Shown: positions 17,617-21,300 of the stretch, one piece after another | How positions within the stretch are numbered: position 1 is the first letter of the stretch | How the letters are laid out: each line of letters opens with the position of its first letter | From: the human T2T-CHM13v2.0 reference genome, Homo sapiens | Assembly (NCBI RefSeq): GCF_009914755.1 | Contig: NC_060946.1 | Strand: one strand, 5' to 3' | Length of the DNA: 64,000 nt | Made by a program: the position numbers and the translations under genes | Notes under the pieces: model-generated | What the model saw: only the letters and a program-made list of their open reading frames with translations | Told to the model about the DNA's origin: nothing | Databases searched by the model: none

Positions 17617-17704
17617 GGGGCGGGGGTGGGGGGCGTGGGGGGAGGGTGGGGGGGGTAGGGGGAGGGTGGGGGGGTGGGGGGAGGGTGGGGGGGTGGGCGG
17701 GTGG
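17617..17704 (+). repeat. G-rich simple repeat with strong G-quadruplex potential
   Basis: More than 10 runs of G3-G8 separated by 1-3 nt. Confidence 0.9.
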
Positions 17705-17983
17705 AATACAATGACAAGTCGTCTATTTTTAACTCAGTTTTGGACTGTTGTTTGTTAAGGCCATTGCTTGTGATAAAGAAAACAAAGGGAGGAGGAGGAG
17801 AAACAAGAAAGGACACAAGAAATAGAAGCAGCAGCATAAGAAAATGAACAGGAACAAGAAAATGATGACAAGCAGAAGAAAAACCAGGCTGGAAAAAAAG
17901 AAAAAGAACAGGTAAGAGAATCAAGGAGACCTATTATACATTTTGTCCCCTTCCTGATTCATGAAATTTAAAAAAGTCCAAGA

Positions 17984-18350
17984 AAATGTGGCACATATGC
18001 ACCATGGAATACTACACAGCCATAAAAAATGATGAGTTCATGTCCTTTGTAAGGACATGGATGAAGCTGGAAACCATCATTCTCAGCAAACTATCACAAG
18101 GACAAAAAACCAAACATCGTTATGTTCTCACTCATAGGTGGGAATTGAACAATGAGAACACTTGCACACAGGAAGGGGGACATCACATACCAGGGCCTGT
18201 TGTGGGATGGGGGGAGCGGGGAGGGATAGCATTAGGAGATATACCTAATGCAAATGACGAGTTAATGGGTGCAGCACACCAACATGGCACATGGATACAT
18301 ATGTAACAAACATGCACGTTGTGCTCATGTACCCCAGAAATTAAAAAAAA
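17984..18350 (+). mobile_element. Short 3'-end L1PA insertion with TSD aaaaagtccaaga
   Basis: L1 ORF2 end and 3'UTR (atgtggcacatat...aacatgcacgttgtgc) with poly(A); TSD at 17971-17983 and 18351-18363. Confidence 0.94.
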
Positions 18351-19494
18351 AAAAAGTCCAAGACTACCCTGACAAAAAACCAAGCAAAATGATACACAAA
18401 TAGTCACCCCCCAAACTTCTGTTAATAACATAATGGTGCCACTCACACCTGACTCAGGTGCCAGCAGGAGGAGGGCGCCCTCCAGATTCTGCAGGAGATG
18501 CGGGGAAGACTCCTCCTTCCCCTGGCTGCACCTCCACTGCTGTCACAGAGGCCCACAGCTTCCTACCCACCCCAGGCCAGGCAGGGCTGCCCCCCAACGC
18601 TCCGACCTGCCTTCCCGGCCCCCAAACTTGCTGCTGCTGCTGCCACAACTAGCACCGATGCTAATACAACTACTACTGCTGTCACCCTCAACGCACAGGC
18701 CCACCCTACAAGGCTCCTAACACCTGACCACTGCACTGCCTGTGCCCTGGCGGCAGCCAGCCGCCATCCTACCGCTCTGGTGCTCTTCAGTTTTCATTGC
18801 CGCCCTCCTACCACTCCAGCGCTGAGTCTTTAGTCTCCATGGCCGCCACCAACCACAGCGAGGCGAGCGGTGGTGCCACAAGCTCCAGCCTCCAGCAGGC
18901 GGCTCCTCCTCCTGGCATGAAACAACTGGGCAGGCAAAGCCAAGAAAGCCTAGAACAGGATGCAGAGAGTGGTAGCGTTAGAGCCTCACCTTGGCATGCT
19001 GGCCACTGGATGGCAGAGGCCGGTTTCAGCGAAGGCACTCACGCCCACCCTCCAAAGTCCAGCCTCTCCTTTTGGCCCAAGTTGGCCAGGAACTAGGGCC
19101 TGGAGTGGGGACTGGAGACACCACAGTGCCCGGGCTTCCTACTCTACTAGAACCGCTGGGCCCACCCTGGCTGCGTTCCTCGGGAAGCAGGAGCAGCAAA
19201 AACTGAACCCCAGCCAGCCCTCCCAACCCTAGTGCTGGTTCCCGTTCCTGACGCCTCCACCCACGGGGCCCTATCACCCCGTAGTGTCAGCTACTGCGTG
19301 CCCGGGGGTCCCAGGCAGTTTCCGCAACACATAGAGGGCGCGGGCCTGGGAACCACGGCTGGTCTAGGTGACGGATTGTGCTCAGGATCCCCGCGGAAAC
19401 GCTGTGCATCCGCCGCGCTCCAGCAGGAGGAGATGGCCCTCTAGAGTCTGGAGTCCGGGGAGACGAGGACCGCTCCTCTGACCACCCGTCACTG

Positions 19495-20760
19495 ACACCA
19501 CCAGCACCAGGGGGGCAGCGCAGCCCCCAACAGCACCCCTAACCCGCCGCCGGCAGTGTAGCCCCCAGATAGCGCCTCCAACACCTCACCCCCAACCACC
19601 GGCAGTGTAGCATCCAATGGCGACCCCAACCTGCCCTTGCTTCGGACACTGCAGCACCCAATGGCGCCCAGAACCCGCCCCCTGCCGCGAGCAGTGCAGC
19701 CCGGGATAGCGCCCCCAATCCGCTCCCTGCCGTACACAGTGTAGCCACGAATAGTGCCCCCAACCAGACCCCTGCTGGGGGCAGTAATGCCCTGATATGG
19801 CACCCAAACCGCCCCCCAACTGCGGGAAGTGCAACCCCGGATAGTGCCCCAACCTGCTCCCCACTGGGAGCAGCAACCCAGGGAGACGCCCCAACTCACT
19901 CCCTGCCTCCGGCAGTACAGCCACAGATAGCGCACCCAACCCACCCCCTGCGCGGGCAAGGTAGCCCCCGATAGCGCACCCAACCCGCCCCGCCGGAACC
20001 AATGTGGCCCCAGGTAGCACACCCACCAGCTCCCTGGCACGCAGTACAGACCTCTGATAGCACCCAACCCGCCCCCTCCCAAAACGGGCAGTGGATACGT
20101 CCCTCAATAGCGCCCCCAACCAGCCTCCCACCCCCTCTACACGGGCAGTCTGGCCCCCAGTAGCACTCCCAATAAATCCTGCTATCTCTGTCTCAGTGTA
20201 GGCCCCAGAAAGCGCCCTCAACACCCCCCTCCCTGCTGCCAACAGTGTAGCACCCTGTAATGAGCCTAACCCGTCCCCCACCACAGCACTGCAGCCCCAG
20301 ATAGTGCTGCCAACCTGCTCCCTGCTGTGGGCAGTGCAGCTATGGATAATGCCCCCAGCCAGCTTCTAGACGCAGGCAATGATGCCCTGGATATAACACG
20401 TCCCGCCCACCGCAGGCAGAGTAGCACCCGATAGCGCCCCCAACCCGTGCCTGACAAGGGCAATGCAACACCCGATAGTTCTTCCAACTCGCCCGCCGGC
20501 CACGGCCACTGCATCCCCAGATAGTGCCCCCAGAACTCCCCACTGCCGCTAGCAGTACAGCTTGGGATAGTGCTCCAACCCACCCCCAGCCACAGGCAGC
20601 GCACACCCGATAGCACCCCCAACCCACTCCCCTCTGTGGGCAGTGAGGCCCCAGATACCACATCCAACCAGCCTCCTAACACGGGCAGTAACGCCCTGGA
20701 TAGGGCCTCCAACCCACCCCACCACGCCACGCCACAGGCAGTACGGCCTGGGATGGCGAA
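19495..20760. repeat. Degenerate C-rich minisatellite, ~43-46 bp unit, roughly 28 copies
   Basis: Recurring unit close to GGCAGTGCAGCCCCGGATAGCGCCCCCAACCCGCCCCCTGCCGC; strong C skew on the + strand; CpG-rich. Confidence 0.92.
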
Positions 20761-20794
20761 CTTTTCCCACCACCATTTTACCATTCTGGCTGCG

Positions 20795-21300
20795 CTCTAG
20801 TCTCCCTGGCCCGCACCAACGGCAGCAGCGAGGTGAGCCACGGCAGGCTCCAGCCTCCACTGTGCTAATGAAGTTGCTCCTCCTCCTTTTCCTCTAAGCT
20901 TCCAGACTCCAGTGTGCTCAGGAAGTGACTCGTTTTCTTTTTCCTCTAAGCCAGTACTAACCAGCTACACAAGCTGACGCAGGAGAGCTTGGAATGACAA
21001 AACTCCCCCCACTTGGCATCGTTTATATATGAGAATTTATGCAAATGAAGTTCCTGGGCTACATGTTCTGATTGGATGAGGAAAACCTCTAGGCCTACTC
21101 TGATTGGACTTTGTTATCATGTTCTGATTGGTTGTCCTAAGACTTGCTCTCATCCAATCAGAACATGCAAATAAAGCCCAATCAGAGTAGATCTAGAGGT
21201 TTTTCTTCTCATCCAATCAGAATATGTAGTCCAAGAACCTCATTTGCATAACCTCGGTAAGGGGAAGTCTCAGTTCCAGGCTCTTCTAGGCTATGTTCTC
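20795..21300. repeat. REP522-like element including its central palindrome
   Basis: gcgaggtgagcc...gctccagcctcca segment followed by an inverted repeat ttatgcaaat...ctgattgg / ccaatcag...atttgcataa; this matches my recollection of the palindromic REP522 repeat. Confidence 0.65.
21031..21255. promoter_or_regulatory. Symmetric CCAAT-box/octamer cluster; candidate distal (possibly bidirectional) promoter of RFPL3
   Basis: ATTGG at 21071, 21103, 21127; CCAAT at 21154, 21178, 21213; octamers ATGCAAAT at 21039 and 21165, ATTTGCAT at 21242. The motifs are seen directly; the promoter role is inferred. Confidence 0.55.

What the first reader, a model, noticed from the sequence alone, without database searches (positions are those of the whole stretch)
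21031..21260. ~220-bp palindrome built from six CCAAT boxes and three octamers
Seen: the left arm 21037-21131 pairs with the right arm 21154-21251 at roughly 85% by eye, with a ~22-nt loop. Three ATTGG face three CCAAT in CCAATCAG context, and perfect octamers cap both ends. A splice donor (CG|gtaagg) follows at 21256/21257. Established: CCAATCAG is an optimal NF-Y site, ATGCAAAT binds POU factors, and REP522 is a palindromic repeat. Inference: a portable, symmetric NF-Y/OCT promoter module able to drive RFPL3 rightwards and a transcript leftwards, and able to form a cruciform or long RNA hairpin.
Basis: partly seen in the sequence, partly recalled or inferred. Interest (0 to 1): 0.7.

Follow-up and report, generated by a model that had tools for sequence, protein, structure and literature searches.

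The report
REP522 repeat's two-faced promoter hairpin
This palindrome is the centre of a known human repeat (REP522, at least 44 copies), built as two back-to-back promoter-like units; in this copy the right unit has lost its TATA box, so it likely drives only a leftward transcript rather than RFPL3.

Summary
The palindrome is real: arms 21037-21134 and 21151-21251, 87 of 101 columns complementary, fold z = -17; six CCAATCAG and three octamers as stated. It is not unique. At least 44 loci carry it (79-89% identical), and published RepeatMasker coordinates place it inside a REP522 element; the miR-5701 sequence lies in paralogous copies. BAGE-type reading frames lie 1.65-1.93 kb outward of palindromes (19 of 21). 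Here only the left unit is whole, and annotated SLC5A4 alternative 5' ends (21011, 20992) bracket its predicted start. The right unit lost its TATA box (about 17 nt) and then about 3 kb; the noted splice donor is a deletion junction upstream of any rightward start, and RFPL3's annotated upstream start (20820) lies on the other side. Arms are no more alike within copies (83.8%) than between copies (83.4%), so the hairpin is not being maintained. Known repeat with known cancer-activated promoters; the back-to-back anatomy was not found in print. Binding and activity untested.

The parts
21037..21134 (-). Left arm of the palindrome: 3 CCAAT boxes (21127, 21103, 21071) and octamer (21039-21046), reading leftwards
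21135..21150 (.). Asymmetric 16-nt loop, shared by the family and usable as a family tag
21151..21251 (+). Right arm: 3 CCAAT boxes (21154, 21178, 21213), octamer 21242-21249; extra octamer at 21165 found only in this copy
21022..21029 (-).
20991..20997 (-). Inr-like site (A at 20995); annotated SLC5A4 alternative 5' ends at 21011 and 20992
   Evidence: hub annotation
20782..21011 (-). Annotated alternative first exon of SLC5A4 transcripts, ending at a GT donor at 20781; homologous sequence lies outward of 20 of 23 left arms and 13 of 23 right arms (the window's own left arm included)
   Evidence: hub annotation
21252..21288 (+). Damaged right core promoter: about 17 nt with the TATA box missing, creating the donor-like junction at 21256/21257; Inr-like site 21270-21276
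21286..21288 (.). Breakpoint of a roughly 3-kb deletion of the rest of the right arm relative to paralogue L032; taken as the end of the REP522 annotation
21111..21129 (+). Paralogue of the miR-5701 mature sequence (3 mismatches in 19)
19467..21288 (.). Main REP522 fragment (hg19 chr22:32749518-32751339, mapped to about +/-200 nt), including the GC-rich ~45-bp unit array at 19510-20740
18799..18956 (-). Small REP522 fragment (hg19 chr22:32748850-32749007), coinciding with annotated alternative exons 18773/18812-18949; 76% like part of the inner exon over 70 nt
20820..20832 (+). Annotated 13-nt upstream first exon of RFPL3; lies left of the palindrome and reads into it, so the hairpin falls in that isoform's intron 1
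   Evidence: hub annotation

Best explanation
The palindrome is the centre of a REP522 repeat copy, in which two promoter-like units (three CCAAT boxes, octamer, TATA box, Inr-like site) sit back to back, likely acting as an NF-Y/Oct-1/TBP promoter that in this copy would fire mainly leftwards. Shown: the anatomy, the copy family, the loss of the right TATA box and of about 3 kb of the right arm. Inferred: one unit arose by short tandem duplication, was mirrored by an old fold-back inversion (very roughly 40 million years ago, from about 9% divergence and a recalled neutral rate), and was spread with its flanks by segmental duplication. Inferred: copies are mostly quiet and open in germ line, early embryo and tumours. 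Here the intact left unit likely starts the annotated alternative SLC5A4 transcripts. The hairpin is likely a by-product that decays almost neutrally.
For: Family: 40 loci plus 4 more; 64 loop-motif matches against 1 in the control. REP522 rows on hg19 chr22 match the three 22q12 clusters in size and spacing, offsets 67.9-68.2 kb. miR-5701, said to overlap REP522, matches exactly inside two chr15 palindrome copies. TATA at both ends in 8 of 23 copies, in 29 of 46 arms. Spacing relative to the octamer: H2B CCAAT -33/-31, TATA +17/+16; window left arm -29, +17. The exact CCAAT-octamer-TATA pattern has 26 matches at 25 places genome-wide, control 0: 12 REP522 arms, 4 at histone-cluster positions (2 shown to be H2B), 9 others. 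Annotated 5' ends 21011 and 20992 bracket the -30 position. Deletions. Literature: REP522 enriched among cancer-activated CAGE promoters (PMC4896275 meeting abstract), up at the 8-cell stage (PMC6545021), BAGE locus REP522 under H3K9me3 in liver (PMC3560060).
Against: No binding, CAGE or reporter data for this copy were seen. The SLC5A4 alternative models may be predicted and their 5' ends imprecise; neither end is at -30 (18 and 37 nt from the TATA start). Motif constraint is weak: the octamer is perfect in only 16 of 46 arms and changes as fast as its neighbours (p = 0.63); CCAAT columns change less than spacers (p = 0.02) but not once CpG-context columns are dropped (p = 0.26); TATA p = 0.02 without that control. 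H3K9me3 at this copy is low (log2 fold 0-1.0 in 21 lines), so 'silenced' is only weakly shown here. The family-level expression reports do not say which part of REP522 starts the RNA. The central CCAAT block changes 2-4 times less than the outer parts, which near-neutral decay explains only if CpG content and my ascertainment account for it.
Confidence: 0.6

Rival explanations
1. The element is still bidirectional here: the right half works as a TATA-less CCAAT/Inr promoter and feeds RFPL3 or a lncRNA.
For: Right CCAAT boxes and octamer are intact; an Inr-like site at 21270-21276 puts the nearest CCAAT at about -59, a usual NF-Y position (recalled).
Against: No annotated plus-strand start right of the palindrome before 23798; the family exon and donor on that side are deleted; the 21257 donor is upstream of the Inr-like site; RFPL3's upstream start is at 20820.
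Confidence: 0.15
2. The copy is an inert fossil; annotated 5' ends come from leaky transcription of the neighbouring GC-rich array, and the motifs do nothing.
For: Weak or no motif constraint and no arm homogenisation; the array beside it is 65% GC with CpG o/e 0.49; an annotated start at 20820 has no link to the motifs.
Against: Two annotated 5' ends sit just downstream of an intact TATA box in H2B-like geometry, and the exon ends at a proper donor; the family is reported to hold active promoters.
Confidence: 0.15
3. The functional product is the RNA hairpin (miR-5701-like small RNA, or dsRNA for ADAR) made from RFPL3 intron 1 or the opposite strand.
For: 90 predicted pairs, longest uninterrupted helix 28; paralogues carry miR-5701; the hairpin lies inside an annotated RFPL3 intron.
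Against: Arm identity within copies 83.8% against 83.4% across copies; shared derived changes 18 against 14.6 +/- 2.7 in permutations, p = 0.15; no Rfam match reaches a gathering score; this copy differs from miR-5701 at 3 of 19 sites; the preprint calls such repeat-derived miRNAs putative.
Confidence: 0.06
4. The palindrome is a MITE-like DNA transposon that moved on its own.
For: Short, AT-rich, multi-copy near-perfect inverted repeat.
Against: Copies share kilobases of flank and the symmetry continues outward through exon, array and outer segment; no stand-alone copy among the loci examined. Target-site duplications were not searched for.
Confidence: 0.04

Closest known systems
REP522 (RepeatMasker Satellite/telo; ~1.8 kb, largely palindromic, unclassified)
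   Same: Published hg19 REP522 coordinates map over this locus and its two 22q12 paralogues; palindromic; multi-copy.
   Different: This copy is a left half plus centre; right TATA and about 3 kb of right arm are gone. The Dfam/Repbase consensus itself was not available.
Human replication-dependent histone H2B promoter (CCAAT, octamer, TATA) in divergent H2A/H2B pairs
   Same: Order and spacing of CCAAT, octamer and TATA within 4 nt; same exact-pattern class genome-wide.
   Different: No histone coding remnant (best tblastn E 0.07); no hit of the arm profile in two H2A/H2B promoters; histone pairs are not palindromic; three CCAAT boxes at 24- and 33-nt spacing.
BAGE family (cancer/testis) 5' region
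   Same: 19 of 21 Pfam BAGE hits lie 1.65-1.93 kb outward of a palindrome copy on the outward strand.
   Different: No BAGE hit at this locus at E <= 1; whether BAGE mRNAs start at the palindrome was not tested.
hsa-miR-5701 hairpin (15q11.2)
   Same: Mature sequence lies in the same position of paralogous palindromes.
   Different: 3 of 19 bases differ here; no processing evidence seen.

Membership tests
REP522 | Annotated as REP522 by RepeatMasker at this locus | tested here: met
   PMC8524813 supplementary file 2 rows chr22:32748850-32749007 and 32749518-32751339 (hg19); mapped by anchoring the right end on the deletion breakpoint and checked against two paralogous clusters, offsets within about 220 nt. 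No formal lift-over.
REP522 | Largely palindromic, about 1.8 kb or more | tested here: met
   Fragment length 1821 nt; paralogues L031 and L032 keep inverted arms at 73-75% identity; description from PMC4896275.
REP522 | Interspersed multi-copy family | tested here: met
   At least 44 loci by BLAST (only 40 of 66 and 40 of 64 candidates were scored); 139 REP522 rows in the supplement.
REP522 | Alignment to the Dfam/Repbase consensus | not testable with these tools
   No repeat library on hand.
Histone H2B-type promoter | CCAAT about 30 nt before an octamer, TATA 16-17 nt after its start | tested here: met
   Left arm -29/+17 against -33/+17 and -31/+16. Not met for the right arm of this copy.
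Histone H2B-type promoter | Histone coding sequence downstream, or homology to H2B promoters beyond the motifs | tested here: not met
   (two H2A/H2B loci and canonical H2A/H2B proteins only; variant histones not tried)
Histone H2B-type promoter | NF-Y and Oct-1 binding, S-phase activation | not testable with these tools
   Needs ChIP and reporter data.
MITE / non-autonomous DNA transposon | Element bounded by its inverted repeats, in unrelated flanks | tested here: not met
   Shared flanks over kilobases.
MITE / non-autonomous DNA transposon | Target-site duplications | not tested
   Not searched, since the element has no free ends at the palindrome.
miRNA hairpin (miR-5701) | Same mature sequence and precise Drosha/Dicer products | tested here: inconclusive
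   16 of 19 identical; no Rfam match at gathering score; processing not testable.

The most novel reading that the evidence does not exclude
The REP522 centre is a two-faced, H2B-like NF-Y/Oct/TATA promoter carried by segmental duplications to dozens of loci, where it seeds new germ-line, 8-cell and cancer transcripts (BAGE-type genes, alternative SLC5A4 starts); which arm fires at each locus can be read off from which arm kept its TATA box and octamer.
Probability: 0.35. Interest if true: 0.6.

Novelty: already known. Interest (0 to 1): 0.3.

Why it matters
REP522 is reported as strongly enriched among cancer-activated promoters and as switched on at the 8-cell stage, yet it is filed as an unclassified satellite. 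The anatomy found here gives a concrete mechanism and a per-locus prediction (arms with TATA and octamer fire, damaged arms do not) that existing CAGE and NF-Y/Oct ChIP data can test. For this locus it corrects the reading: the intact unit points at SLC5A4, not RFPL3. The element itself is known and this copy is a damaged one.

Tried and rejected
Derivation from a histone gene: no coding remnant, no profile hit in two H2A/H2B promoters. Concerted evolution of arms: not significant over 23 copies; single copies (L012 with 4 and L024 with 3 shared changes) may show local conversion; L041 was dropped as a partial palindrome. DUX4-type motifs (recalled consensus): none between 20700 and 21500. Rfam: 9 matches at E <= 1, none at gathering score, generic hairpins. 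Known protein domains outward of right arms: 0 of 82 frames over a Pfam cut-off. A look-alike module at G000:C12:81.76 Mb proved unrelated. A loose paired-CCAAT pattern (156 places) was too unspecific for counting copies. An apparent loop inversion in alignment A1 came from my orienting some loci wrongly and was dropped; orients them by the loop. The bacterial promoter scan is irrelevant. Kaczkowski 2016, Horie 2017 and a recalled RFPL evolution paper are not held, so what they say about REP522 start sites was not seen. Fourteen further copies could not be fetched, so statistics rest on 23 copies picked by similarity to the window, which favours apparent conservation. Earlier scan findings were not available.

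Full report
Observation. Folding gives z = -17.3 as DNA and -18.9 as RNA, with 0 of 200 shuffles as stable. Six CCAATCAG and three octamers are present. The boxes are not independent: two units in an arm match at 18 of 19 bases, and the third octamer occurs in 1 of 46 arms examined.

It is a repeat. A genome search found 40 loci at 79-89% identity apart from the self match (40 of 66 candidates scored), and a second query added 4. A 21-base loop motif matches 64 places against 1 in the control, a few probably by chance. The palindrome is the centre of a larger mirror: exon-like segment, ~45-bp GC-rich array and outer segments follow on both sides in the 22q12 paralogues L031 and L032, whose outer arms are 73-75% alike. 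In the window the right side stops at 21286-21288, where the sequence jumps about 3 kb relative to L032.

It is REP522. Supplementary file 2 of PMC8524813 (rows seen through searches; methods passages say hg19 RepeatMasker) lists three REP522 clusters on chr22 at 32.52, 32.60 and 32.75 Mb. Anchoring the last on the breakpoint maps it to window 18799-18956 and 19467-21288; the other two give offsets within about 220 nt and matching lengths. In the L032 cluster one 3.5-kb REP522 row spans both arrays and the palindrome. Independently, bioRxiv 2021.12.09.471935 (one passage) places miR-5701 in REP522; its sequence (PMC8677043 supplement) matches exactly at two chr15 places inside palindrome copies, and at 16 of 19 bases at window 21111.

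Anatomy of an arm. Aligning 46 arms from 23 copies shows CCAAT, CCAAT, CCAAT (24 and 33 nt apart), octamer 29 nt on, TATATAAA 16 nt on, and an Inr-like site about 31 nt on. Two H2A/H2B gene pairs fetched from the same genome have CCAAT at -33/-31 and TATA at +17/+16 from the octamer; the window's left arm has -29 and +17. The exact three-motif pattern has 26 matches at 25 places genome-wide, none in the control: 12 REP522 arms, 4 at histone-cluster positions (2 shown to be H2B, 2 not fetched), 9 others. This is likeness of layout only: no histone coding remnant and no profile hit in the histone promoters. PMC1794435 (passages and Table 1) lists CCAAT, Oct-1 and TATA among human histone promoter motifs.

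This copy. The left unit is whole: TATA at 21029-21022 on the minus strand, Inr-like A at 20995. The hub annotation gives SLC5A4 alternative 5' ends at 21011 and 20992, bracketing the -30 position, with an exon ending at a GT donor at 20781 and further exons at 18773/18812-18949. The right unit lacks about 17 nt including TATA; both 22q12 paralogues also lack TATA on this arm. RFPL3's annotated upstream exon (20820-20832) starts left of the palindrome and reads through it.

Selection. Arms within a copy are 83.8% alike and across copies 83.4%; shared derived changes 18 against 14.6 +/- 2.7 (p = 0.15). The hairpin is therefore not being kept. CCAAT boxes are intact in 17-23 of 23 arms per position, TATA in 29 of 46, octamer in 16 of 46. 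CCAAT and TATA columns change less than neighbours (p about 0.02 each), but the CCAAT signal vanishes without CpG-context columns (p = 0.26) and the octamer shows none. The central block does change 2-4 times less than the outer parts; lower CpG content (0 CpG in the window's palindrome) and my choice of copies may explain this, but selection is not excluded.

Function of the family. PMC4896275 (meeting abstract passage): REP522 strongly enriched among the most cancer-activated CAGE promoters. PMC6545021 (passages): up at the 8-cell stage. PMC3560060 (passage): the BAGE locus holds a large REP522 region under H3K9me3 in human liver. PMC3757347 (passages): BAGE is silent in normal tissue and expressed in tumours and male germ cells. 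PMC6925957 (passages) and PMC11353194 (passages) report tumour expression; 10.1101/189753 (passage) reports enrichment in lncRNA exons; PMC9365560 (passages) places miR-5701 at 15q11.2; PMC4240582 (passage) gives the class name. Here, 19 of 21 Pfam BAGE hits lie 1.65-1.93 kb outward of a palindrome; none is at this locus. The values I take to be H3K9me3 log2 fold at this copy are low: mean 0.42 in 13 normal and 0.13 in 8 cancer lines by my grouping (p = 0.02).

Mechanism. Most likely (0.6): a back-to-back promoter unit made by an old inversion, copied by segmental duplication, decaying almost neutrally, active mostly where repression lifts; here firing leftwards. Binding and activity are inferred, not shown. 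Rivals: still bidirectional through a TATA-less right half (0.15), inert (0.15), hairpin RNA as product (0.06), MITE (0.04).

Novelty. The element, its palindromic nature, its miRNA annotation and its cancer-activated promoters are known. The back-to-back CCAAT-octamer-TATA anatomy was not found in 10 library searches (only 14 papers hold the word REP522), but two key papers are not held, and the original REP522 description, which I recall as linked to octamer-bearing immunoglobulin probes, was not seen. Interest 0.3.

Noticed in passing
window 19510-20740: Degenerate array of about 20 GC-rich ~45-bp units (65% GC, CpG o/e 0.49), part of REP522, not among the longest masked stretches listed for NCBI's file.
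   Followed up: partly
window 17617-17701: G-rich tract of 19-20-bp units (3.8 copies), G-quadruplex-like.
   Followed up: no
window 20849-20951: Two-copy 52-bp tandem duplication inside the annotated alternative SLC5A4 first exon.
   Followed up: no
window 17983-18350: Masked fragment with a poly(A)-like end, recalled as an L1 3' end, absent at this place in paralogue L031.
   Followed up: partly
L031:917-7305: The inverted duplication around the palindrome extends beyond REP522 into flanking DNA, a mirror of at least 6 kb.
   Followed up: partly
L012 and L024 palindrome arms: 4 and 3 derived changes shared by both arms of one copy, possible local arm-to-arm conversion.
   Followed up: partly
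L059:490-580: AT-rich site with a CCAATCAG and three octamers within about 60 nt, unrelated to REP522.
   Followed up: partly
G000:C21:10712698 and G000:C5:181843414: Two BAGE-domain hits with no palindrome found nearby in my lists.
   Followed up: no
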